Assembly: GCA_964374095.1 (NCBI GenBank)
Contig: CAYJXJ010000006.1
Location: 4,339-56,779, forward strand
DNA: 52,441 nucleotides
Direction of reading: 5' to 3'
Source of the DNA: an uncultured Elusimicrobia bacterium
Lineage (GTDB): Bacteria > Elusimicrobiota > Elusimicrobia > UBA1565 > UBA9628
The notes below the pieces were generated by a model, which saw only the letters and a list, made by a program, of their open reading frames with translations, was not told where the DNA came from and did not search any database. Positions 950 through 11,392 of the stretch are shown piece after piece. Each line of letters starts with the position of its first letter. Within the stretch, counting starts at the first letter, position 1. The position numbers and the translations under genes are program-made.

Positions 950-2932
950 TCATGGTCGATTCAATATCATGGTCGCGAACAGGCTGACGGCGATGGCCAG
1001 GTACATGAGATACTCCTGCACCTGGCCGTGGGAGACCAGGCCCCGCAGGCCCGACCCGAGGTCCCGGCTCAAATCCCCGAACCCGTCGACCGTGCGGTCG
1101 ACGAACAGGACGTCGAAGACGTTGCTGATCTCGGACCAGATGCGGGTCATGAGGCCCCAGCCGTCCACGAAAATCTCATCGATGACCTTGAGATCCACCC
1201 AGGCGCAAAGACCCGCCAGGCGGTCCGAGAGGGCCACCAGGCCCAGGAAGAAATCGTCCAGAAAATAACGCCGGTCCAGGAGGTTGAAGGCCGGTTGGAA
1301 GCGCGCCTTGAGGCTTTCGGCGAGGCTGAAGTCCCGGTCCGCGTAGAGCTTCCAAGAGAGGGCGATCGAGGCGATCACCGCCGCGGTCACCGCGGCCGCC
1401 AGGACCCGCGGGTCGGCGTGGTGGTGTCCTCGCGGGAGTTCCCATGTCACCAAACGCGCGAACGTGTGGCGGTGCTCCAAGGCCCAGCCGGAGACTACGG
1501 AAAGAAAGGCCAGGATGACGAGCGGGGTGGTCATGACCGCGGTGGATTCCTTCGCGTGGTGGAACTTATCCCGGTCGCGGGCGTCGCCCCAGAAGGTGAG
1601 AAACAGCATCCGGAACATGTAGAAGGCCGTGAGGCAGGCGCTGAAGGCGAGCACCCCGAACATGAACGGGCTGCGCTCGAAGACCTTCTCGAGGATCAAG
1701 TCCTTGGAGTAGTAGCCGGCCAAGGGAGGGATGCCCGCGATGGCGAGGGTCCCGATGGCCATGGTCATGAAGGTCAGGGGCATCCTTTTCGAAAGACCCC
1801 CCATGGAGCGCATGTCGTTGGTGTGCACGGCGTGGATCACCGAGCCGGCTCCGAGGAAGAGCAGGGCCTTGAAGAAGGCGTGGGTGGTGAGATGAAAGAG
1901 GCCGGCCGTGTAGCCGGCGCAGCCCAGGGCGCACATCATGAAGCCCAGCTGGCTCACGGTCGAGAAGGCCAAAACCCGCTTGATGTCGTAGGCGACGAGG
2001 GCCATGCTCGCGGCGAGCAACGCCGTCAGGAGTCCGGCCCAGGCCGCCGCGTCCATGGCCAGGGGGCTGGCCGCGAAGATGAAGTAGCACTTGGCGACCA
2101 GATAGATTCCGGCCGCCACCATGGTCGCCGCGTGGATGAGGGCCGAGACCGGCGTCGGGCCTTCCATGGCGTCGGGCAGCCAGATGAAAAGCGGGAACTG
2201 CGCGGATTTGCCCGCCGCGCCGGCCAGCAGCCCCAGGCCGATGGCCGCGAGGGCGGCCTGGGAAATCATGCCTTGCACCACGTTGTTGTGGAGCAGGCTG
2301 ATCTGGAATGTCCCCCCCTTCACGAATATCAGGAGCAGAGCGAGGGAGAAGCCGATGTCGCCGAGCTTGGTGGTGATGAACGCCTTCTTGCAGGCGTAGG
2401 CGGGACCCGGCTTTTCGAACCAGAAACCGATGAGAAGATAGGAGGAGACTCCCACCAACTCCCAGCAGGCGAAGGTGACCAGGAGGTTGTTGGAAACCAC
2501 CAGACCCAGCATCGAGGCGGTGAAGAAGGAGAGATACGCGAAATAGCGCTTGAAGCGGGGGTCCCGCCGATGCTCGGCGTCGACCATGTATCCCAGGGAG
2601 TAGAGCTGGACGAGGAAGCTCACCAGGGTCACGACCACGAGCATGAAGGCGGCGGGGGCGTCGATGAGCACCCCGGCCCGGAGCTCGAAGAGGAAATCGG
2701 AGCCTCTGAGGCTGGCCGGAAAGCTGAACCAGGTCCAAGACCTCTCGACGGGAAGGGTCAGGCCGCCGGTGATCGTACGCCAAAGTATGGAGGATGAAAT
2801 GATGAGGCACGTTCCCATGGCCAGAAGGGCAAGGTAAGGCATGGGGGAATGCTCGTCTTCCGTGCCGACGAAAAGGATGATGAGCGACGCCGCCAGCGGG
2901 ATCAGGGGGATATACGGGGCGTAGTCGATCAT
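950..2932 (-). CDS. nuoL: NADH-quinone oxidoreductase subunit L (ND5 family)
   Basis: 660-aa multi-TM ORF. Motifs: SYLLIGFWFEKP, ALIHAATMVAAGIYL, MRSMGGLSKRMP. Lies between nuoK and nuoM. Confidence 0.95.
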   Translation of the reverse strand: MIDYAPYIPLIPLAASLIILFVGTEDEHSPMPYLALLAMGTCLIISSSILWRTITGGLTLPVERSWTWFSFPASLRGSDFLFELRAGVLIDAPAAFMLVVVTLVSFLVQLYSLGYMVDAEHRRDPRFKRYFAYLSFFTASMLGLVVSNNLLVTFACWELVGVSSYLLIGFWFEKPGPAYACKKAFITTKLGDIGFSLALLLIFVKGGTFQISLLHNNVVQGMISQAALAAIGLGLLAGAAGKSAQFPLFIWLPDAMEGPTPVSALIHAATMVAAGIYLVAKCYFIFAASPLAMDAAAWAGLLTALLAASMALVAYDIKRVLAFSTVSQLGFMMCALGCAGYTAGLFHLTTHAFFKALLFLGAGSVIHAVHTNDMRSMGGLSKRMPLTFMTMAIGTLAIAGIPPLAGYYSKDLILEKVFERSPFMFGVLAFSACLTAFYMFRMLFLTFWGDARDRDKFHHAKESTAVMTTPLVILAFLSVVSGWALEHRHTFARLVTWELPRGHHHADPRVLAAAVTAAVIASIALSWKLYADRDFSLAESLKARFQPAFNLLDRRYFLDDFFLGLVALSDRLAGLCAWVDLKVIDEIFVDGWGLMTRIWSEISNVFDVLFVDRTVDGFGDLSRDLGSGLRGLVSHGQVQEYLMYLAIAVSLFATMILNRP

Positions 2933-2933
2933 A

Positions 2934-3239
2934 TCATCCGCGGAGGAGGTTGTAGTCCTCCACGTAGACCGTGTCCTTGTTCCGGTAGATCGCCAGCACC
3001 AGGGCCAGGCCGACCACGACCTCGGCCGCCGCGATGGTGATGATGAAGAGGGCCACCGCCTGTCCCCCCACCCCCTGGGGATGCAGGAAGCGGTTGAAGG
3101 CGGCGAGGTTGAGGTTCGCCGCGTTGAAGATGAGTTCGATCGACATGAGTATGCCGATGATGTTGCGGCGGGTGAGGGCGCCGAAGATGCCGATGAGAAA
3201 CAGCAGGGAGCCGACGACGAGATACGGGCCGAGGGTCAT
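2934..3239 (-). CDS. nuoK: NADH-quinone oxidoreductase subunit K (ND4L)
   Basis: Internal ATG at 3239 of ORF 2934..3644 gives a 101-aa, 3-TM protein: MTLGPYLVVGSLLFLIGIFGALTRRNIIGILMSIELIFNAANLNLAAF... The upstream part of the ORF is Arg/Pro-rich noise. 4-nt overlap with the nuoJ stop. Confidence 0.92.
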   Translation of the reverse strand: MTLGPYLVVGSLLFLIGIFGALTRRNIIGILMSIELIFNAANLNLAAFNRFLHPQGVGGQAVALFIITIAAAEVVVGLALVLAIYRNKDTVYVEDYNLLRG

Positions 3240-3772
3240 GACCCCTCCTCCTCGCGGCGCGGGGCCGGTCGGGAGAAGACGATGACGCCCAGCAGCGCCG
3301 CGGTCAGGACCAGGGAGACCGCCTCGAAGGGCACCGCGTAGTCCCCAAGCATGAGCCGGGCCAGAGCCCGGGTCGTGCCCGCGGTCTCGGGCAGGCCCTG
3401 CGCGCCGTGTCCGGCGTAGAGCCGGGCGATGCGCAGCAGGCCCGTCAGGGCGATGAGGCAAATGACGACGGCCGCCGCCGCCTGCTGGTTGACCTGCTTG
3501 AGGTGGAGGTCGGATTCCCGGCCCAAGAGCATCACCACGAACATGATGAGCACCGCGATCCCGCCGACATAGACGAGAATCTGCCCCGCGAAGAGGAAGT
3601 CGGCCCCCAGGGCCGCGAAGAGCCCGCCCACGGCCGAGAGGCACAGGCCAAGGAAGAGCGCGGAGTGAACGGTGTTGCGCACGGCCACGACGAGCAGCGC
3701 CGAGATCAGCGCCACCGCGGCGATCGAGGTGAACGCGAACGTCTCAATCACAGCGCGCCCCCTGTTCGTCAT
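3236..3772 (-). CDS. nuoJ: NADH-quinone oxidoreductase subunit J (ND6)
   Basis: ATG at 3772 (MTNRGRAVIETFAFTSIAAVALISALLVVAVRNTVHSALFL...), 178 aa, multi-TM. An alternative in-frame GTG at 3751 overlaps the nuoI stop by only 8 nt. The start is uncertain by 7 codons. Confidence 0.85.
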   Translation of the reverse strand: MTNRGRAVIETFAFTSIAAVALISALLVVAVRNTVHSALFLGLCLSAVGGLFAALGADFLFAGQILVYVGGIAVLIMFVVMLLGRESDLHLKQVNQQAAAAVVICLIALTGLLRIARLYAGHGAQGLPETAGTTRALARLMLGDYAVPFEAVSLVLTAALLGVIVFSRPAPRREEEGS

Positions 3773-4277
3773 GCCGGACCGGGACGGTCTGGATGGAAAA
3801 CTGCCCCTCGGGATCCTTGAAGGCCTTGGCGAGACGGTCCCAGTACTTTCCGATGAACGGGAAATCCTTCTTCCAGCAGCGCACCATCTCGTCCCGGCTA
3901 TAGAAGACGACCTCATAATCCAGGGCATGCCAGACGGACTTCGGCTTGGTCGGGCAGGACTCCTCGCAGAGCCGGCAGAAGTTGCACTTTCCGAAATCGA
4001 TCGAGTACCAGGCCACCTGCGCGATCTTCTTGCCGGTCTCGTTGGTCGCGTTCTCCAGGGCGATGCAGGCCGAGGGGCAGGCCTTGACGCAGAGGTTGCA
4101 GGAGATGCACACCCCGGCGTCGAAGAGGAGTGCCCCCCGGAATTTCTCGGCGGGAACGAGCTTCTCCTCCGGGTATTGAATCGTGATGGCGGGCTTGACC
4201 ATCGTCCTGAGGGTGATCCAGAAGCCTTTGCCGAGGGCCCCGGCCGCGCCGCCGATCCGTTTAAAATAGTCGATCAT
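3744..4277 (-). CDS. nuoI: NADH-quinone oxidoreductase subunit I (2x[4Fe-4S] ferredoxin-type)
   Basis: 177 aa with two CxxCxxCxxxCP motifs (CISCNLCVKACP, CNFCRLCEESCP). Correct operon position. Confidence 0.95.
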   Translation of the reverse strand: MIDYFKRIGGAAGALGKGFWITLRTMVKPAITIQYPEEKLVPAEKFRGALLFDAGVCISCNLCVKACPSACIALENATNETGKKIAQVAWYSIDFGKCNFCRLCEESCPTKPKSVWHALDYEVVFYSRDEMVRCWKKDFPFIGKYWDRLAKAFKDPEGQFSIQTVPVRHDEQGARCD

Positions 4278-4281
4278 TGCT

Positions 4282-5622
4282 TCATAGTTGGGCCACCAGC
4301 AGGCCCGCCATGGCGATATTGGCGAAGCTCCAGGGCAGGAGGAATTTCCAGTTGAAGTCCATGAGCTGGTCCACGCGGAATCTGGGGAGGGTCCAGCGGA
4401 TCCACAGGAACACGAACATCATGACCATGGCCTTGGCCAGCATCCATATCCAACTCGGGATGAACCCCAGGCCCGGGAAGGGAGGCTGGCCTCCGCCCAG
4501 GAAGAAGGTCGCGAGCAGGAAGCACGCCAACAAGACGTAGGCGTATTCCGCCAGGAAGAAGATCGACCACTTCATCCCGGAGTACTCGGTGTGGTATCCC
4601 GAGACGAGCTCGGACTCGGCTTCCGGGATGTCGAAGGGCGTGCGGTTGGTCTCGGCCACGGAGGCGATGAGAAAGATCAGGAAGGCGATCGGGCCGACGG
4701 GGAAGTAGAAAATGAACCACTTGGGCCAGAAACCGGCCCAATAGCCGCTCTGGGCCGAGTCGATCACCGCGAGGTTGAGCGAGCCCGCGAGCATGATGAC
4801 GGGCACCACCGAGAACCCGCGCGGGAGCTCGTAGCTGACGACTTGGGCCGCGGCGCGCAGGCCCCCGAGCAGGGAGTACTTGTTCCCCGAGGCCCAGCCC
4901 GCCATCACGACCCCGACGACGGAGATGCCGGCCACGGCGAAGATGTAGAGGACGCCCATGTCGAGGTCGGCCGCGGCCAGTTCGGAGCCGAAAAGGACCG
5001 GCGCGAATGCCATGACCGCCGGGGCCACGACCACGGCCGGGGCGAGGGCGTGGACGAGCTTGTCGGCCGCCTCCGGGGTGATGTCTTCCTTAAAGAGGAG
5101 CTTGATCCCGTCGAGTATGGTCTGGGCCCAGCCATGGAAGCCCCCGGCGCGCATGGGACCCAGCCGCGACTGCATGTGCGCCGAGATCTTACGCTCCCAC
5201 CAGATGGCCCAGAGACCGTTGATGAGGACGATATGGAGAACGATGAGGGCCTTGATCGCGATCCATGCCGCGGCGACCGCCGGAGGCGGGAGCCGCAAGG
5301 CCATGACGTCGTAAAGACGATTGCCCCACCGGGAGAGCTCTCCGATCAACCAGCCCGCGCCGAAAATGCCGAGAATGATGGCGGCGAGCAAACCCGCCGC
5401 CCGCCGGTAGCCGGGATCGCCCCAGGGATTGGCCCACTTCTCCGTCGGCCAGTAACGCGTGTCGTGGAGCAGGCGCCCCGCGGATTCGTTGAACACCGGC
5501 TTGGGATAAACCGCCTTGGCCGCGGTCTTGGCCGCCGCCGAGGTCGCGGCCGGGGCGGGCTTGGCGGCGGGCGGCGGGGCGCCGGACGTCGGCGGCGCCT
5601 TGGGCTCTTCTTCCGCGCTCAT
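4282..5622 (-). CDS. nuoH: NADH-quinone oxidoreductase subunit H (ND1) with about 105-aa N-terminal extension
   Basis: The canonical NuoH core starts near WWERKISAHMQSRLGPMRAGGFHGWAQTILDGIKLLFKEDI. The first plausible ATG is 5622 (MSAEEEPKAPP...). The extension keeps G/C-ending codons and contains an extra TM helix (AAGLLAAIILGIFGAGWLIGEL). An internal ATG at 5304 would give a canonical-length 340-aa protein. Confidence 0.85.
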   Translation of the reverse strand: MSAEEEPKAPPTSGAPPPAAKPAPAATSAAAKTAAKAVYPKPVFNESAGRLLHDTRYWPTEKWANPWGDPGYRRAAGLLAAIILGIFGAGWLIGELSRWGNRLYDVMALRLPPPAVAAAWIAIKALIVLHIVLINGLWAIWWERKISAHMQSRLGPMRAGGFHGWAQTILDGIKLLFKEDITPEAADKLVHALAPAVVVAPAVMAFAPVLFGSELAAADLDMGVLYIFAVAGISVVGVVMAGWASGNKYSLLGGLRAAAQVVSYELPRGFSVVPVIMLAGSLNLAVIDSAQSGYWAGFWPKWFIFYFPVGPIAFLIFLIASVAETNRTPFDIPEAESELVSGYHTEYSGMKWSIFFLAEYAYVLLACFLLATFFLGGGQPPFPGLGFIPSWIWMLAKAMVMMFVFLWIRWTLPRFRVDQLMDFNWKFLLPWSFANIAMAGLLVAQL

Positions 5623-5629
5623 GGGCCCC

Positions 5630-5700
5630 CCAACCGCTCCGTTCCCGATCGAGGCCACGCTACGCGTCCTGAATGTTGCCGTCCAACCGCTCCGTTCCCG
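5630..5700. repeat. Perfect 18-nt direct repeat CCAACCGCTCCGTTCCCG (5630-5647 and 5683-5700) in the nuoD-nuoH spacer
   Basis: Read directly from the sequence. The copies are 53 nt apart. On the transcribed strand each reads CGGGAACGGAGCGGTTGG (contains GGAG). The proximal copy ends 7 nt before the nuoH ATG. Confidence 0.9.
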
Positions 5701-5727
5701 GGGGCTTGCGGGAAGGCCCTCTGGCTG

Positions 5728-5743
5728 CCTCCACCGGTGGAGG
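5728..5743. repeat. 16-nt perfect palindrome CCTCCACCGGTGGAGG in the nuoD-nuoH spacer (potential RNA hairpin or protein site)
   Basis: The sequence is self-complementary when read directly. Located 75 nt downstream of the nuoD stop on the transcribed strand. Confidence 0.7.
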
Positions 5744-5818
5744 TGGCCGTGGCATGCGGGCGGTGGGCTCGAAAGGCATCGCTCTCGCAGCATACGGGGG
5801 GCGTCGAGTCGCCGTTTG

Positions 5819-6949
5819 TCACCGGTCCACCTCGCCGAGCACGATGTCGATGGAGCCCAGGATCGCGATCACGTCGGCTACCTTGCAGCCGACGAGCATC
5901 TCTTGGAGTATCGCGAGGTTGACGAAGGAGGGGGCGCGCACGTGCATCCGGTAGGGGCTGGCGCCGCCGTCGGAGACCAGGTAGATGCCGAGGTCTCCCC
6001 GGGAGCCCTCGACATGGACGTAGCTCTCGCCCTGGGGGGCCTTGGGGATCTTGGCCACGCCCGTGGCCATGATCTCGCCGGGCGGAAGGCGGGCGAGGAC
6101 CTGTTCGATGATCCGCACCGATTGGCGCATCTCCCGGACGCGGCAGTGGTAGCGGTCCCAGCAGCTTCCGGTCTCGCCGAGCGGAATATCGAAGGCGAGT
6201 GTCGCGTAGGAGCAGTAGGGATCGGACTTGCGGACGTCGTAATCCACCCCGGAGGCGCGCAAATTGGCCCCGGAGAGCCCCCAGTCCATGGCCTGCTCCC
6301 GGCTGATGCGGCCGACGTCTTGGGTTCGGGCCATGAAGATGGGGTTGTAGGTGAGGAGGGCGTCGTACTCGTCCAAGCGGGCTTTGAAATGGTCCAGGAA
6401 CTCCCGGGTCTTGGCGAGCCACTCGGGCTTGAGGTCGGCCATCAGGCCGCCGAGCCGGATGTAGTTGTAGGTCAGCCGCGCCCCGCAGCACATCTCGAAG
6501 AGGTCGAGGATCATCTCGCGCTCGCGGAAGGCGTGCAGGAAAGGGGTGAAGGCCCCGATGTCGATGCCGTAGGTGCCGAAGAAGAGAAGGTGGCTGGCGA
6601 GGCGGTTCATCTCGCACATGAGGACCCGGATGTCGTCGGACCGCGGCGGGACCTTGAGCCCCATGAGCTTCTCGGCCGCCAGGCAGAAGACGAGGTTGTT
6701 GGGCATGGCTGAGACGTAGTCCCAGCGGTCGGTGAGGACCACGCAGTGGTGATAGCCCCGCACTTCGGCGAGTTTGGCCGTGCCGCGGTGGAGGTAGCCG
6801 ATGTCCGGGACGGCCTTGGTGATCACCTCCCCTTCGATGGTGAGTCCAACCCGCAGCACGCCGTGGGTCGAGGGATGCTGAGGACCGAGATTGATGAAGA
6901 GCGAGTCGGACCTCACGCCGGGCTCGAGCTTGGCCGGGGCGCTACTCAT
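5819..6949 (-). CDS. nuoD: NADH-quinone oxidoreductase subunit D (49-kDa/NDUFS2 homolog)
   Basis: 376 aa: [15 protein letters not shown], ...[16 protein letters not shown]..., and a C-terminal DIVLGEVDR typical of NuoD. Confidence 0.95.
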
Positions 6950-7511
6950 CGTACTGATCCTTGACGTGGACGTAGTCCTTGCGCAGCGGGAAACCCTTGA
7001 TGAAATCGGGCGTGAGGATTTTCGTCAGGTTGGGGTGCCCCTCGAAGCGGATGCCGAGCAGGTCGAAGGTCTCGCGCTCCTGCCAATCGGCGGCCTTGAA
7101 CAGGGAGACCAGGCTCGGGACGACGGGCTGGTCGCGCGGGACTTCCAAGCGCAGGAACAGCCGCAAACGCTGCGGGATGTTGGCCAGGCACCAGAGCAGG
7201 TCGAAAACCGGGCGATAATTGACCCCGGCCGTCGCGGTGACTTGGATCTGCGGGGTGGCGCCCTCCGGAAGGAAGACGTTGAAGTTCGGGTTGCGGATGA
7301 AGCCCTCTTTGCCGACCGGGCCCAGCCAGTCGACGGCGGTGACGATCTCGAGGTAAGCGAAGCCGAGGACCTCCTTCAAATACTTGACCACGGGGATGAG
7401 GTCCTCGGCTCCTTTTAGCCGCAGCGTCACGTAGTCCTTGACGGGGTTCTGAGCTTTTTGGATCGAAGCAAATCGCGCCAGAATACTGGCCTCGAGCTCT
7501 TCCCTCGTCAT
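6942..7511 (-). CDS. nuoC: NADH-quinone oxidoreductase subunit C (30-kDa)
   Basis: Internal ATG at 7511 ([14 protein letters not shown]...), 189 aa. Contains [24 protein letters not shown] overlap with the nuoB stop; 8-nt overlap with the nuoD start. Confidence 0.9.
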
Positions 7512-8080
7512 GTGGCCGAGGCCGGGCCTTCGGCGGCGATGTCGCGCGAGCCCTTCTCTTGCCGAGGGGTGGCGCCGGCGCCGCGGCTGAGCTTCATGCG
7601 GGCGATCTTTTCCTGCAGCTTGATGATGGCGAACTGGAGGGCCTCGGGGCGCGGCGGACAACCGGCGATATAGATGTCGACCGGCACGATCCGGTCCACC
7701 CCCTTCAAGACGGAATAGGAATCATAGTACGGACCGCCGCAGTTGGCGCAGCTGCCCATGGAGATGACGAAGCGAGGCTCCGGCATCTGGTGATAAATCT
7801 GAAGGATGGGCTCCGCCATTTTCTTGACCACGGTTCCCGCGACGATCATCACGTCGGCCTGGCGCGGGCTGGCCCGCGGGATGACCCCCATCCGGTCGAA
7901 GTCGAAACGAGCCGCGTAGGAGGCCATCATCTCGATGGCGCAGCAGGCCAAGCCGAAGGTCATGGGCCAGAGGGACATCTTGCGCCCCATGTCGATGACG
8001 GCGTCGGCGGTGGCGAGAATGAGCTCGCCTCCGGGCAGGCCCTTCGTGGCTCCCGGCAGTTTCTCTAGGATCAGTCCCAT
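7508..8080 (-). CDS. nuoB: NADH-quinone oxidoreductase subunit B (PSST, N2 cluster)
   Basis: Internal ATG at 8080 ([10 protein letters not shown]...), 190 aa. Contains [20 protein letters not shown] and IAGCPPRPE cluster ligand motifs. Confidence 0.93.
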
Positions 8081-8439
8081 ACCAGGGCTCCCTTGCGCCA
8101 GGCGTAGATCAGCCCGAGGAACAGGATGCCCAGGAAGATCGCCATCTCGATGAGGAATGTGGAACGGGCGATGGCGCCCGGATCGCGGGCCGCGACCGCC
8201 CACGGGTAAAGGTAGAGGGTCTCCACGTCGAAAAGGACGAAGAGCAGCGCGAAAACGTAGAAGCGGATGTTCAGCCGGACTCCCGTCGAGCCGGTGGCCG
8301 GTATGCCGCACTCGTAGGTGGAGAGCTTGCGCGCGTAGGGGACCCGGGGCCGCAGGAGCTTCGCGGCGAGCAACGTGACGGCGGCAAACAGCGCGCCCAG
8401 CAGCGCGAAGGCGTAAACGACCGCCATGGCGTGGTTCAT
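8071..8439 (-). CDS. nuoA: NADH-quinone oxidoreductase subunit A (ND3)
   Basis: Internal ATG at 8439 ([21 protein letters not shown]...), 122 aa, 3 TM. Contains YECGIPA and [16 protein letters not shown]-type 4-nt overlap with the upstream methyltransferase stop. Confidence 0.92.
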
Positions 8440-9449
8440 ATCCCTTCGGTCGCGGCGCCCTTGGTTTGGATCAAGACTTTGAACGACTCCCCCATGCCGT
8501 CGGGATGCAGGAGAGTCTTGACGCGCAGGCGCTCGGGAGGAGGGGCGGCCTCGACGAGCGCGCCGATCCCGCCGTCGATCAGAAAGCCCGCGAGGGTCGA
8601 GTATCGATCCAGGCCCAGGCCGAGGCGGCGGCCCTCCCCGATGAGGGCCTCGAAATCGACGTTGGCGGTGATGTCGCGTCCCCCGAGCCCCAGTTCCGAG
8701 CCCTCGGTCTCGACCCGGTGGCGCCGGAAGGTGCGCGGGGGGTTGATCGCCCCCGGCGGGAGACGCGAGCCGTAGTCCACCGTAACGACCGCGCCGGCGG
8801 TGAGCTTGCGGGCGACGGTTCCCAGCCACCGGAGGGCTTCCAGCCCCACCGCGTGGCGCTGTCCCGGGGGCAGGCCGTCCAGGGTCCGCGCGGGTCCCTC
8901 CAGCGCGGGGCTCGAGAGCGGGCCGAGGACGGGGACGTCACCCCGGATGTATACCTCGCGCGCGCCTTCCGGGGTCGTTTCCAAGAGGTGGAAGGGCAGC
9001 GCGTCGACCAGCTCGTTGGAGTGGAAGACGCCCGCGCAGGGGAGGACGTCTTCGAGGCGGGAGTAGCCCAGAACGTGCGGGGTCGCCGCCGAAAGGCTCA
9101 AGACGCTGTCCAGGAGGAGCTGGCGCTGCGGTTCGACGAGGATGAACCGCAGGCTCGAGAAAAGATCCGGCCGAAGCCTGGACAGAGCCGCGGCGACCTG
9201 CCGCGCGAGCAGGCCCGTTCCCGAGCCCATCTCAACCAGGGCGTAGGGTCCCCGGATCCCCTGCCGGCGCAGGGCGTCGAAGCGGCGCGCGAACTCCCCC
9301 GCCAGGATTTCGGCGAAGGCCGGGGTGAGTTCCGGGGCGGTGTAGAAATCCGCCCCGGGACGCCTGCGGGAGTAGAAGCCCCCCCGCCCGTGCAGGGAGT
9401 GGGCCATGAAATCGCGGAACGGGACCGCTGCGGCGGCGGGGGCGCTCAT
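8436..9449 (-). CDS. Class I SAM-dependent methyltransferase, MidA/NDUFAF7 (DUF185)-like
   Basis: 337 aa: [17 protein letters not shown]...[19 protein letters not shown]...[15 protein letters not shown] (SAM motif I)...[14 protein letters not shown]. This pattern is what I recall for the MidA/NDUFAF7 family. 4-nt overlap with nuoA. Confidence 0.7.
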
Positions 9450-9469
9450 GGGACCGCGGTCGACCGCGC

Positions 9470-9646
9470 TTAAAGGTCCTCGGCGCCGAGGGTCTTGCGG
9501 CTTGTGCCCGTTACTTTCCCGATCGATTCCTTCACGAGTTCCTCGACCTTTTGAGAGAGTCGATCGATATAATCCCCCCCGGTTCTGAGGCCGCCGGCCT
9601 TGACCATCTGCTTGACTTTGCTCACCACAACCATCGATTCAGCCAT
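9470..9646 (-). CDS. Small histone-fold-like DNA-binding protein (singlet bacterial histone / DUF1931-related)
   Basis: ATG at 9646 preceded by GGAGGT (9654-9659). 58 aa: MAESMVVVSKVKQMVKAGGLRTGGDYIDRLSQKVEELVKESIGKVTGTSRKTLGAEDL. The helix-loop-helix-loop-helix layout and the C-terminal RKT-x4-D motif resemble archaeal and Bdellovibrio-type histones, from memory. Confidence 0.6.
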   Translation of the reverse strand: MAESMVVVSKVKQMVKAGGLRTGGDYIDRLSQKVEELVKESIGKVTGTSRKTLGAEDL

Positions 9647-9682
9647 TGTCTTTACCTCCGAAATATAAGTCCCGCTCACCCC

Positions 9683-9711
9683 AATTTATTAAAAATCGTG
9701 TACTGAGTCAA
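9683..9711 (-). promoter_or_regulatory. Putative sigma70-type promoter of the histone-like gene (TTGACT-17-TAAATT)
   Basis: On the minus strand: -35 TTGACT (9706-9711), 17-nt spacer, -10 TAAATT (9683-9688). Lies about 35 nt upstream of the ATG, just downstream of the vapC stop. Confidence 0.45.
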
Positions 9712-9718
9712 ACCGAGG

Positions 9719-10117
9719 TTAGAGCCAGACGATCTTGACCGTTCCTTCGATGGCGCCGAATTCCTTGTCCCCCGTTACAAGGTCCGCCTTTCTGAGCTTG
9801 GCCAGCGCGGCCGCGAAGCAATCCGCATAGGACATCTTGTGCGCGGCCTTGATCTCGGCGGCCGCGGCCGCCATGCCTCGGTCGACGGGGACTATCTCAA
9901 CCGGCAGAGTATCCAAATTTCTGATGACCGCCTCAGCCGCGGGTTTTCCTGCGGCCCTACGAACGATATAATAAACCTCGCCCCAATTGATGACGCTCAT
10001 CAATAGCGGCTTGTCCTTGTCTCGCGCCTGTTTGATCATGTTGGAAACGCGCTCGGCGCCTTTCTCATTCTCTAGATAGGCGATTACGGCGAAGGAGTCG
10101 AGGACCAGCCGGCTCAC
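9719..10117 (-). CDS. vapC: PIN-domain ribonuclease toxin VapC
   Basis: 132 aa with the conserved acidic positions (LVLDSFA..., WGEVYY, SYADCF, TGDKEF). 4-nt overlap with the upstream antitoxin. Confidence 0.9.
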   Translation of the reverse strand: MSRLVLDSFAVIAYLENEKGAERVSNMIKQARDKDKPLLMSVINWGEVYYIVRRAAGKPAAEAVIRNLDTLPVEIVPVDRGMAAAAAEIKAAHKMSYADCFAAALAKLRKADLVTGDKEFGAIEGTVKIVWL

Positions 10118-10350
10118 AGCTTCCGCTCCCGTTCTTTCTCGGTGAGAAGGGCCTTGAGAATGGAGCCGCGCGTCCCTAGCGAGCCTCGCAGGTGGTCGAT
10201 ATACTCGTCGGTCACGGGCTTGAGCACGATCTCGTCGCCCCGCTCCATGAAACAGACTCGCGTCCCCTTCCGGATCTTCAGGCGGTGGCGTATCCGGTAA
10301 GGAATGACGACTTGCCCTTTGGTCGTGACCACGCCGGTTTCAAGGTGCAT
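10114..10350 (-). CDS. vapB: AbrB/MazE/SpoVT-family antitoxin (VapB)
   Basis: 78 aa with a swapped-hairpin motif: TTKGQVVIPYRIRHRLKIRKGTRVCFMERGDEIVLKP. GGGAGGAGG SD-like run upstream of the ATG. Confidence 0.88.
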   Translation of the reverse strand: MHLETGVVTTKGQVVIPYRIRHRLKIRKGTRVCFMERGDEIVLKPVTDEYIDHLRGSLGTRGSILKALLTEKERERKL

Positions 10351-10376
10351 GAATTTCCTCCTCCCTTATTAACAAT

Positions 10377-10405
10377 AGGATACCATTAGTAATAATGTAT
10401 GTCAA
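10377..10405 (-). promoter_or_regulatory. Putative vapBC promoter (TTGACA-17-TATCCT) in a 200-bp AT-rich spacer
   Basis: On the minus strand: -35 TTGACA (10400-10405), 17-nt spacer, -10 TATCCT (10377-10382), then a leader with the SD. The surrounding 10351-10549 is the most AT-rich stretch of the window. Confidence 0.5.
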
Positions 10406-10549
10406 TAGTATTTAAGTAAGATATATTATAAATATAGAGCCGCATATCAATTATGGAGTCCATCGTTTTATTGGTACGATCTAGAATCGACGCGGTAGGT
10501 TGGATTGGTGGTTGAGACGTCGTCGGCCTAGCGCACTCGACGGCGCGGC

Positions 10550-11263
10550 TTAATTGGGCGCGCGCTCCAACTCGGCCGCCCGGCGCTCATCCCGCTCGGC
10601 CGGGGCGATCCGCCCGAGGGCGCGGGCGATGCGGGCCCGCAGGCGCCAGTGGGGCGCGTGCGAGGGGTCGAGCTGGACCGCGGCGTCGGCCTCGGCGAGG
10701 GCTCCCGCCGGGCTTTGCAGGAGCAGAAGGGCGCGGGCGCGTCCCGCCCGGGCCCCCGCGAACTCCGGGGCGAGCTTCACCGCGCGGTCAAAATGCCCCA
10801 GAGCGGTGTCGGGCTGTCCGCTCTCCAAGGCGAGGTCTCCCAGGGTGTCGTAGGGAAGGGGATTTTTTCGATCCAGGCGGGCCGCGGCGTAGAGGTCCCG
10901 CAGGGCGTCGTTCTTGCGGCCGGAGCCCAAGGCCGATATGGCGCGCTGGAAATACGCGTCGCTCATGGACGCCCCCATGTGCCGCTTGAGTTCGGGTTTG
11001 AACTTGGCGGCGGATTCAAAATCCGCGATGGCCCCGTCGAACTTCTTGAGGCGGTAGCGCGCCGTCGCCCGGTTGGCGAGCGCCTGGACGTTCTGGGGGT
11101 CCCGTGCCAGGACCTTGTCGAACAGCGCGGCCGCGGCGGCCGGATCGCCTTTGACGAGGAGCGCCACCCCGTGCGCGGTCGGGTCGTCGGGTTTGGGAGC
11201 GGCGAGGGAGAGGGAAACGGATAACGACAACGGCAACAACAACGGCAGGGACGGATATTTCAT
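10550..11263 (-). CDS. Secreted tetratricopeptide-repeat (TPR) protein
   Basis: 237 aa. Signal-peptide-like N-terminus MKYPSLPLLLPLSLSVSLSLAAP. Repeated A-x3-F/Y-x2-A-x6-P TPR-like units. Confidence 0.75.
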   Translation of the reverse strand: MKYPSLPLLLPLSLSVSLSLAAPKPDDPTAHGVALLVKGDPAAAAALFDKVLARDPQNVQALANRATARYRLKKFDGAIADFESAAKFKPELKRHMGASMSDAYFQRAISALGSGRKNDALRDLYAAARLDRKNPLPYDTLGDLALESGQPDTALGHFDRAVKLAPEFAGARAGRARALLLLQSPAGALAEADAAVQLDPSHAPHWRLRARIARALGRIAPAERDERRAAELERAPN

Positions 11264-11315: not shown

Positions 11316-11319
11316 GACG

Positions 11320-11392
11320 TGGCGCCGGGAGGACTTGAACCTCCGACCTAACGCTTATGAAACGTCCGCTCTAACCCCTGAGCTACGGCGCC
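11320..11392 (-). tRNA. tRNA-Met (anticodon CAU; elongator-type, or Ile2 if lysidinylated), CCA not encoded
   Basis: Manual cloverleaf of GGCGCCG-TA-GCTC-AGGGGTTA-GAGC-G-GACGT-TTCATAA-GCGTT-AGGTC-GGAGG-TTCAAGT-CCTCC-CGGCGCC-A. It lacks initiator features (no C1:A72 mismatch, no 3xGC anticodon stem). Confidence 0.9.

What the first reader, a model, noticed from the sequence alone, without database searches (positions are those of the whole stretch)
9470..9646. Singlet histone-fold-like protein with its own promoter in a lower-GC islet
The 58-aa product is MAESMVVVSKVKQMVKAGGLRTGGDYIDRLSQKVEELVKESIGKVTGTSRKTLGAEDL. Its length and short helix / loop / long helix / loop / short helix spacing fit one histone fold. 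Its N-terminal MAE-x-VVV-SKVK segment and C-terminal RKT-x4-D motif resemble, as I remember them, archaeal HMf-type histones and the recently characterised Bdellovibrio-type bacterial histone (DUF1931 relatives). It has a plausible TTGACT-17-TAAATT promoter and a GGAGGT SD. It sits beside a vapBC module in DNA of visibly lower GC than the flanking nuo operon, so it may be horizontally acquired. Bacterial histones are rare and their DNA-binding modes are barely explored.
Basis: partly seen in the sequence, partly recalled or inferred. Interest (0 to 1): 0.7.

Follow-up and report, generated by a model that had tools for sequence, protein, structure and literature searches.

The report
Bacterial histone gene in Elusimicrobia
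This small gene encodes a bacterial histone of the recently described Bdellovibrio (HBb) type, a long-resident gene of the Elusimicrobiota phylum, so it is a correct call but a new member of a known kind.

Summary
The 58-aa ORF is real and lies on the minus strand (9646..9470). It matches the solved Bdellovibrio histone HBb/Bd0055 over its full length (E 5e-6 alone, 3.6e-11 as a family profile). Its AlphaFold model (pLDDT 85.8) is a histone fold with a short α2 and a one-turn α3. All top structural matches are histones, led by HLp, HBb and HTkC. It carries S9-K10, K12, K16 and R50-x-T52-x4-D57, and lacks the tetramer signature of face-to-face histones. It therefore fits the published "bacterial dimer" class of α3-truncated histones, already reported as common in Elusimicrobiota.

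Pfam, NCBIfam and PHROGs do not detect it. The horizontal-transfer idea fails for the histone. The gene occurs in at least 121 species-level genomes, nearly all of those listed being Elusimicrobiota. It lies just upstream of a methyltransferase and the nuo operon in 57 of 65 informative loci, and is less GC-rich than its surroundings in 77 of 83. Only the neighbouring vapBC pair is an insertion. The unreported points are the conserved histone-nuo linkage, an archaeal-type L1 arginine, and Glu where HBb has Arg57.

The parts
9470..9646 (-). Histone CDS, 58 aa plus TAA. Predicted α1 is residues 6-17, L1 18-23 (G-L-R21-T-G-G), α2 24-45, L2 46-54 (R50-K51-T52), and a one-turn α3 55-57 (D57).
   Evidence: ORF. 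(HBb E 5e-6 / 3.6e-11). (AF2 pLDDT 85.8). (Foldseek top hits HLp, HBb, HTkC, TM 0.70-0.74).
9654..9659 (-). Shine-Dalgarno GGAGGT, 7 nt upstream of the ATG.
   Evidence: An SD-like motif occurs at -18..-4 in 71 of 84 family upstream regions.
9683..9711 (-). Sigma-70-like promoter candidate TTGACT-17-TAAATT in the 72-nt, 41.7% GC spacer between vapC and the histone gene.
   Evidence: Sites scoring >=9/12 occur in 45% of family upstream regions, against 4% of coding controls and 11% of shuffles. Transcription start not tested.
9450..9469 (-). 20-nt gap between the histone stop and the methyltransferase ATG. It contains the perfect 14-nt palindrome CGCGGTCGACCGCG (9455-9468) and no terminator-like site.
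   Evidence: Downstream 45-nt folds across 84 loci are not unusually stable (mean z -0.19).
8436..9449 (-). Methyltransf_28 (PF02636) methyltransferase, the conserved downstream neighbour. Its stop overlaps the nuoA start at 8439-8436.
   Evidence: E 2.2e-27.. A relative is found within 400 nt downstream of the histone gene in 32 of 65 relatives.
8071..8439 (-). nuoA, first gene of the complex I operon (nuoA, B, C, D, H, J, L identified, running to about position 950).
9719..10350 (-). vapBC toxin-antitoxin pair (vapC PIN 9719-10117, vapB 10114-10350). It is an insertion relative to the syntenic relative L004 and is not part of the histone unit.
10377..10405 (-). Promoter-like site TTGACA-17-TATCCT upstream of vapB, in a 199-nt spacer of 41% GC.

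Best explanation
The gene encodes an α3-truncated histone of the 'bacterial dimer' (HBb/Bd0055-like) class. It is native to, and vertically inherited in, an Elusimicrobiota genome.

Proposed mechanism, inferred by homology: two 58-aa chains pair head to tail through their long α2 helices to form a histone-fold dimer. Each end of the dimer presents an L1-L2 loop pair (R21-T22, R50-K51-T52, held by the R50-D57 clamp) together with the N-terminal turn of α1 (S9, K10, K12, K16). These contact the DNA phosphate backbone at minor grooves without sequence specificity, bending or coating the DNA. The protein would thus act as an abundant nucleoid-associated protein.

The gene has its own promoter and SD. 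With only 20 nt and no terminator before the next gene, transcription probably also reads through into the methyltransferase-nuo operon.

Shown here: gene reality, homology, fold, motifs, phyletic persistence, synteny, and that vapBC is the inserted element. Inferred: dimerisation, DNA binding and its mode, abundance, co-transcription.
For: Sequence:
- Full-length match to the solved HBb (8fvx/8cmp), E 5e-6 alone and 3.6e-11 with the 120-sequence family profile.
- Next best are HLp (9qt0) at 7e-9 and HTkC (9f2c) at 1e-6.

Structure:
- The AF2 model has pLDDT 85.8 with helices 6-17 and 24-45, a β-bridge in L2 and a 3-residue α3.
- The 8 best Foldseek PDB hits are HLp, HBb and HTkC (TM 0.70-0.74), and all 50 listed hits are histone-fold proteins.
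- α2 is 4 residues shorter than in HMfB and α3 is truncated.

DNA-contact residues:
- Of the ten HBb DNA-contact residues, six are identical here and invariant in the family: S9, K10, K12, K16, K51, T52.
- HBb N22 is replaced by an invariant R21, which aligns with the HMfB sprocket arginine R19.

Dimer interface: the hydrophobic HLp dimer positions map to V11, V15, L30, V34, L37 and I42.

Subclass: the FtF tetramer signature R49/N53/R55 maps to K44/T48/R50.

Persistence and selection:
- 459 homologue clusters, and 121 species-level genomes, nearly all of those listed being Elusimicrobiota.
- Synonymous codon variation at invariant residues.
- The histone-nuo arrangement is found in 57/65 loci.
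- Endomicrobia keep the gene without nuo next to it.

Literature: Elusimicrobiota are already listed among the phyla carrying bacterial dimer histones.
Against: - No curated profile library recognises the protein: Pfam, NCBIfam and PHROGs give nothing significant.
- The profile comparison with archaeal HMfB is weak (E 0.0015, probability 17%).
- HBb R57, which has the second-highest number of DNA contacts, is an invariant Glu here. T8 is Val and S24 is Gly, so the DNA interface is not identical to HBb.
- In most relatives the clamp arginine is Lys (57 K against 6 R).
- No expression or DNA-binding data exist for any Elusimicrobial member.
- The tight and conserved placement ahead of nuo could point to a function other than general chromatin organisation.
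Confidence: 0.82

Rival explanations
1. The protein is a tetrameric, DNA-wrapping face-to-face (FtF) histone like Leptospira HLp or archaeal HTkC, rather than a dimer-only bender like HBb.
For: HLp is the top Foldseek hit (E 6.9e-4, TM 0.73). The profile also matches HLp and HTkC (7e-9 and 1e-6). R21 is shared with HTkC R22 and HMfB R19 but not with HBb.
Against: The residues described as conserved in tetrameric bacterial FtF histones (HLp R49, N53, R55) map to K44, T48 and R50 in the window protein. In the family consensus they are K, variable and K. The best sequence match is HBb (46 bits against 39 and 32). The literature places the Elusimicrobiota histones in the bacterial dimer cluster.
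Confidence: 0.08
2. The histone-fold protein is functionally tied to complex I. It could be a dedicated regulator or architectural factor of the nuo promoter region, or a protein-protein module acting with the methyltransferase or Nuo subunits, rather than a global nucleoid protein.
For: nuoB lies on the same strand within 3 kb downstream in 57 of 65 loci, even though the intervening methyltransferase changes family (Methyltransf_28, UbiE type, or none) and the upstream genes vary. The gap to the next gene is only 20 nt, with no terminator. Some histone folds work outside DNA binding, as discussed in the literature.
Against: The DNA-contact residues of HBb are largely conserved and invariant. 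Endomicrobia loci keep the gene next to unrelated genes (L055, L056, L059-L061). The gene has its own promoter and SD signals across the family. Conserved gene order alone does not show a functional link.
Confidence: 0.07
3. The histone gene arrived by recent horizontal transfer together with vapBC, as a lower-GC islet.
For: The 9450-10549 stretch is 54.5% GC against 66.4% for the window. The histone GC3 is 0.69 against about 0.87 in its neighbours. A mobile-type toxin-antitoxin pair lies beside it.
Against: The window and L004 are collinear on both sides (S8 peptidase, RR-GerE, TPR-like protein, histone, Methyltransf_28, nuo). They differ only by about 780 bp that carries vapBC. The histone keeps its position before nuo in 57/65 loci. 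The gene is less GC-rich than its locus in 77/83 relatives, by 4.4 points on average. Its closest relatives are all from Elusimicrobia.
Confidence: 0.02
4. The ORF is a chance open frame in GC-rich DNA, or the region is a structured RNA.
For: High-GC DNA produces many spurious ORFs (51 ORFs of >=30 aa in 5.5 kb). No curated family hit was found.
Against: There are hundreds of full-length homologues, with 23 invariant residues and synonymous codon variation. The fold prediction is confident. The RNA fold is no more stable than shuffles (z +0.40).
Confidence: 0.01

Closest known systems
HBb / Bd0055, bacterial dimer histone of Bdellovibrio bacteriovorus (PDB 8fvx, 8cmp, 9ezz, 9f0e)
   Same: Aligns end to end at about 39% identity. 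Both start MAE-x-VV-x-SKVK. K12, K16, the RKT-x4-D clamp, the short α2 and the one-turn α3 are shared, and both are 58-64 aa with no tails or extra domains.
   Different: L1 reads G-L-R-T-G-G-D-Y instead of G-Q-M-N-T-S-A-E. That gives an invariant Arg where HBb has N22, Gly where HBb has S24, and one residue fewer. HBb R57, a major DNA contact, is an invariant Glu; T8 is Val. Most Elusimicrobial relatives have Lys instead of the clamp Arg. The gene sits at the head of the nuo locus.
HLp (Leptospira perolatii, PDB 9qt0-2) and HTkC (Thermococcus kodakarensis, PDB 9f2c), face-to-face α3 histones
   Same: Same α3-truncated fold (TM 0.70-0.75). The S-K-V-K start of α1, the hydrophobic dimer positions and the R-x-T-x4-D clamp register are shared. 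HTkC also has the L1 arginine.
   Different: Lacks the tetramer-interface signature (HLp R49, N53, R55 map to K44, T48, R50). Sequence scores are lower than to HBb.
HMfB, archaeal nucleosomal histone (PDB 1a7w)
   Same: The L1 arginine (R21 = R19) and the C-terminal motif R-K-T-L-G-A-E-D-L against R-K-T-I-K-A-E-D-I match. This is closer than HBb's R-K-T-V-M-A-R-D-I.
   Different: α2 is 4 residues shorter and the α3 and C-terminal 9 residues are missing, so the four-helix-bundle surface used for hypernucleosome stacking is absent. The profile similarity is only marginal (E 0.0015).
DUF1931 (PF09123) pseudodimeric histone-fold proteins (e.g. Aquifex Aq_328)
   Same: Histone fold found in bacteria.
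   Different: No Pfam hit to DUF1931. Those are two-fold pseudodimers in one chain that the literature describes as lacking DNA-binding residues. This protein is a singlet that keeps such residues. The 'DUF1931' label on PDB 9qt0 is a depositor's name for HLp.

Membership tests
α3-truncated histones (Schwab et al. 2024, PMC11390915) | Histone fold: α1-L1-α2-L2-α3 | tested here: met
   The AF2 model has pLDDT 85.8 with H6-17, H24-45 and H55-57. All 50 listed Foldseek PDB hits are histone folds.
α3-truncated histones (Schwab et al. 2024, PMC11390915) | α3 helix of only 3-4 residues | tested here: met
   The model's α3 is residues 55-57 and the protein ends at 58. The C-terminal 9 residues of HMfB have no counterpart.
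α3-truncated histones (Schwab et al. 2024, PMC11390915) | α2 is 4-5 residues shorter than in nucleosomal histones | tested here: met
   There is a 4-column gap within α2 relative to HMfB in alignment A4.
α3-truncated histones (Schwab et al. 2024, PMC11390915) | RxTxxxxD motif (RD clamp) | tested here: met
   R50-K-T52-L-G-A-E-D57. In most relatives R is replaced by K: 57 K against 6 R. The salt bridge itself was not inspected.
Bacterial dimer histones (HBb-like) | Sequence clustering with HBb/Bd0055 (the class is defined by sequence) | tested here: met
   HBb is the best PDB match: 5e-6 for the single sequence, and 3.6e-11 (46 bits) for the profile, over the full length. No CLANS map was made.
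Bacterial dimer histones (HBb-like) | Conserved S9-K10 and α1 lysines (K11/K13/K17 in the published logo numbering) | tested here: met
   S9, K10, K12 and K16 are invariant in 120 homologues and align with HBb S9, K10, K12 and K16.
Bacterial dimer histones (HBb-like) | Lacks the FtF dimer-dimer residues | tested here: met
   HLp R49, N53 and R55 map to K44, T48 and R50. The family consensus is K, variable, K.
Bacterial dimer histones (HBb-like) | Forms dimers and no higher oligomers | not testable with these tools
Only the conservation of hydrophobic dimer positions could be checked.
Bacterial dimer histones (HBb-like) | Sequence-independent DNA binding or bending; abundant nucleoid protein | not testable with these tools
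   Inferred from 6 of 10 HBb DNA-contact residues being identical. There are no experimental data.
Face-to-face (FtF) histones | Conserved tetramer interface R49/N53/R55 (HLp numbering) | tested here: not met
   Window K44/T48/R50 matches one of three. The family consensus matches none.
Pfam CBFD_NFYB_HMF (PF00808) | Score above the Pfam gathering threshold | tested here: not met
   No hit at E<=1 for the window protein. Only 5/120 relatives reach E>=0.048.
Pfam DUF1931 (PF09123) | Match to the DUF1931 model; pseudodimeric two-fold chain | tested here: not met
   No hit in any of 120 members at E<=10. The protein is a 58-aa singlet.
Archaeal nucleosomal (HMf-type) histones | Full-length α2 and α3 giving the tetramerisation and stacking surface | tested here: not met
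   α2 is shorter by 4 residues and α3 is truncated. hhalign probability is 17%.

The most novel reading that the evidence does not exclude
In Elusimicrobiota the histone gene acts as the leader cistron of the complex I locus. It would be transcribed from its own strong promoter with read-through into methyltransferase-nuo. Chromatin-protein supply and respiratory-chain expression would then be coupled, or the histone would specifically shape or regulate the nuo promoter region. In addition, its archaeal-type L1 arginine and A-E-D motif, with Glu in place of HBb R57, would give a DNA-binding geometry different from both HBb and HLp.
Probability: 0.12. Interest if true: 0.55.

Novelty: new member of a known kind. 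Interest (0 to 1): 0.3.

Why it matters
Only two bacterial histones, HBb and HLp, have been characterised, and they bind DNA in different ways. The Elusimicrobial clade is large, with at least 121 species-level genomes. It is highly conserved and invisible to Pfam and NCBIfam, so genome annotation calls it a hypothetical protein. It differs from HBb at several DNA-contact positions: an archaeal-like arginine in L1 and Glu instead of Arg57. A member of this clade would therefore be a sensible third system for asking how histone-fold dimers engage DNA in bacteria. Its near-constant position ahead of the complex I operon is an unreported regularity that transcript mapping could test. For this window the practical outcome is an annotation: histone (native), vapBC (inserted).

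Tried and rejected
- **Curated profile libraries.** Pfam, NCBIfam and PHROGs scans of the protein gave nothing significant. Scanning all 120 relatives against Pfam gave only marginal CBFD_NFYB_HMF and TAF touches.
- **Comparison with archaeal HMfB.** hhalign of the family against HMfB alone was weak (E 0.0015, probability 17%). The archaeal link therefore rests on motif alignment and fold only.
- **Terminator.** The scan found none in 9000-10800. Folding 45 nt downstream of the gene in 84 loci showed no consistent hairpin (mean z -0.19).
- **RNA element.** The mRNA region folds no better than shuffles (z +0.40), so a structured-RNA reading is rejected.
- **Insertion scars.** The search for repeats flanking vapBC gave only short, imperfect matches that look like chance.
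- **Second histone or HU.** tblastn of the window for a second histone gene, or for HU (E. coli HUα sequence recalled from memory), found nothing. This says little, since only 52 kb were searched.
- **Literature on the nuo linkage.** The held literature search found no mention of a histone-nuo linkage.

Full report
**Observation**

The ORF is present at 9470-9646, but on the minus strand (ATG 9646-9644, TAA 9472-9470). It translates exactly to the 58 residues quoted. A longer frame from GTG 9679 exists (69 aa). Most homologues begin MAE (consensus MAET; A2 and E3 at least 90% conserved), and GGAGGT sits 7 nt upstream of ATG 9646, so the 58-aa reading is the gene.

The scan independently finds the promoter-like TTGACT(9711..9706)-17-TAAATT(9688..9683). 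The 1.8-kb region holds 5 such sites against 0.7 expected. GC is 55.4% for the ORF, 41.7% for the 72-nt upstream spacer and 54.5% for 9450-10549. The window is 66.4% and the flanking genes about 71%. The upstream neighbours are a PIN-domain toxin and a MazE/AbrB-type antitoxin overlapping by 4 nt, i.e. a vapBC pair.

**What the protein is**

- **Curated libraries fail.** Pfam, NCBIfam and PHROGs give no significant match. Of 120 relatives scanned one by one, only 5 touch CBFD_NFYB_HMF, at E>=0.048, and none touches DUF1931.
- **PDB sequence search succeeds.** The single sequence aligns end to end with the Bdellovibrio bacteriovorus histone HBb/Bd0055 (8fvx, 8cmp; E 5e-6). It also aligns with HLp of Leptospira perolatii (9qt0; 8e-6) and HTkC of Thermococcus kodakarensis (9f2c; 1e-3) (names).
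- **The family profile is stronger.** A profile of 120 homologues (alignment A1) raises these to 3.6e-11, 7.3e-9 and 1e-6.
- **The predicted structure is a histone fold.** An AlphaFold2 model built on A1 has mean pLDDT 85.8. It shows α1 6-17, L1 18-23, α2 24-45, a β-bridge in L2 and a three-residue α3 at 55-57.
- **Fold search agrees.** Foldseek against PDB returns HLp, HBb and HTkC as the eight best hits (TM 0.70-0.74, rmsd 1.9-2.4 Å). Every one of the 50 listed hits is a histone-fold protein: H4, H2B, TAFs, NF-Y and Asgard histones.

**Subclass**

Schwab et al. 2024 define α3-truncated histones by a 3-4-residue α3, an α2 that is 4-5 residues shorter than in nucleosomal histones, and retention of RxTxxxxD. 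All three are met here:

- α3 is residues 55-57.
- There is a 4-column gap in α2 relative to HMfB (HMfB sequence verified against 1a7w).
- The motif reads R50-x-T52-x4-D57.

Within that family, the bacterial dimer class is defined by sequence similarity to HBb, by conserved α1 lysines with the S9-K10 motif, and by absence of the FtF dimer-dimer residues. S9, K10, K12 and K16 are invariant across A1. HBb is the best match. The residues reported as conserved in tetrameric bacterial FtF histones (HLp R49, N53, R55) map to K44, T48 and R50 in the window protein. In the family consensus they are K, variable and K. The protein is therefore a bacterial dimer-type α3 histone, not an FtF, DUF1931 or HMf-type histone.

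**Mechanism (inferred)**

The hydrophobic residues that hold the HLp dimer together (V16, I20, L35, L39, L42, L47) correspond to V11, V15, L30, V34, L37 and I42 here (alignment). This is consistent with the usual antiparallel α2 handshake dimer.

The ten HBb residues with most DNA contacts in the HBb-DNA structures and simulations are N22, R57, S9, T53, T8, S24, K10, K12, K52 and K16. They compare with the window protein as follows:

| HBb residue(s) | Window protein |
|---|---|
| S9, K10, K12, K16, K52, T53 | identical (S9, K10, K12, K16, K51, T52) and invariant in the family |
| N22 | R21 (invariant) |
| T8 | V8 |
| S24 | G23 |
| R57 | E56 (invariant) |

R21 aligns with the "sprocket" arginine R19 of HMfB and with R22 of HTkC. 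The C-terminal RKTLGAEDL is closer to HMfB's RKTIKAEDI than to HBb's RKTVMARDI.

The likely action is sequence-independent binding of the phosphate backbone at minor grooves, through the L1-L2 loop pair and the start of α1. That would bend or coat DNA, as in HBb. The interface is partly different, and its consequences are unknown.

**Distribution and origin**

- The 5.8-billion-protein collection holds 459 homologue clusters at E<=1e-3. The best is 76% identical, and every named one is from Elusimicrobia MAGs.
- A scan of one genome per species found 121 genomes with the gene. Nearly all of the 80 listed are Elusimicrobiota, including Endomicrobia.
- An exhaustive profile search of 1.84 billion cluster representatives found only 405 at E<=1e-3. 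The fold type is rare globally but standard in this phylum, in line with the literature.
- Invariant residues are encoded by several synonymous codons across genomes, which indicates purifying selection on the protein.

**The "islet"**

In relatives the histone gene lies directly upstream of, and on the same strand as, a methyltransferase followed by nuoA-B-C-D-H. Of 65 loci with at least 2.5 kb of downstream sequence, 57 have nuoB on the same strand within 3 kb. In 32 the intervening gene is a Methyltransf_28 homologue, as in the window. Others have a UbiE/COQ5-type enzyme or none.

L004 (GCA_016218545.1) shares the window's whole neighbourhood: S8 peptidase of about 1,383 aa, response regulator with GerE domain, TPR-like protein, histone, Methyltransf_28, nuo. 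It has 185 bp where the window has 967 bp, and the difference is vapBC with its AT-rich spacer.

Only one other locus, L048, has a similar vapBC. There it lies in the opposite orientation, apparently separated from the histone gene by a tRNA-like stretch inferred from ORF translations (no tRNA scan was run on L048).

The histone gene is less GC-rich than its locus in 77 of 83 relatives, by 4.4 points on average. The window's difference is 11.1 points. The vapBC pair is therefore the inserted element, and the histone is native.

**Expression signals**

- SD-like motifs occur in 71 of 84 upstream regions.
- Sigma-70-like sites scoring >=9/12 occur in 45% of upstream regions, against 4% of coding controls and 11% of shuffles. 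Having its own promoter is thus a family feature.
- Downstream there are only 20 nt to the methyltransferase ATG, no terminator-like site and no consistent hairpin across loci.
- The methyltransferase stop overlaps the nuoA start at 8439-8436.

Read-through from the histone promoter into methyltransferase-nuo is therefore plausible but untested. Endomicrobia loci keep the histone next to unrelated genes, which argues that its function does not depend on nuo. The two main histone survey papers do not mention a nuo linkage, and a search of the held library found no relevant paper.

**Verdict**

The horizontal-transfer and DUF1931 parts are not. The protein is a new member, at most 76-78% identical to anything on record, of a known and published class. 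No Elusimicrobial member of that class appears to have been studied experimentally: HLp is described as only the second bacterial histone characterised. Interest is modest. It rests on the conserved histone-nuo arrangement and on the archaeal-like L1 and C-terminal residues that set this clade apart from HBb.

Noticed in passing
window 8436-9449 (-) and 8071-8439 (-): A Methyltransf_28 (PF02636) methyltransferase sits at the head of the nuo operon, and its stop overlaps the nuoA start at 8439-8436. From general knowledge, this Pfam family includes the mitochondrial complex I assembly factor NDUFAF7/MidA. In other Elusimicrobia the same slot holds a UbiE/COQ5-type methyltransferase, or nothing.
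   Followed up: partly
window 9719-10350 (-); L048 1531-2159 (-): The vapBC pair (PIN toxin plus MazE/AbrB-type antitoxin, 4-nt overlap) is an insertion relative to the syntenic relative L004. A closely similar vapBC pair lies upstream of the histone gene in L048, in the opposite orientation. The same mobile cassette therefore seems to have landed twice in the variable region upstream of the histone.
   Followed up: partly
window 9455-9468: A perfect 14-nt palindrome, CGCGGTCGACCGCG, fills most of the 20-nt gap between the histone stop and the methyltransferase start. It is too short and too loopless to be a classical terminator. It could be a protein-binding site or a weak hairpin.
   Followed up: no
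window 11319-11392 (-): A tRNA-Met (CAT) gene lies about 1.7 kb upstream of the histone gene. It overlaps the mechanically listed TTG start (11335) of the response-regulator ORF, so the true start of that gene is probably a downstream Met. In L048, ORF translations suggest a tRNA-like stretch directly upstream of the histone gene (not scanned).
   Followed up: no
window 950-8439 (-): The nuo operon reads nuoA, B, C, D, H, J, L, with no room for nuoE-F-G between D and H. This looks like the complex I-like form that lacks the NADH-oxidising module.
   Followed up: no
proteins P0134, P0143, P0147, P0150, P0154 and others: The exhaustive profile search returned many proteins of 118-136 aa with two matched stretches. 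These are tandem doublets of this same α3-type histone fold in a single chain. Their origin is unknown, because the library has no annotation.
   Followed up: no
window 9470-9646 (-), residues 46-50: The window protein is the only 58-aa member among 84 loci (59-60 aa is typical), owing to a one-residue deletion at the α2/L2 junction. It is also one of only 6 of 63 members with Arg rather than Lys at the clamp position.
   Followed up: yes
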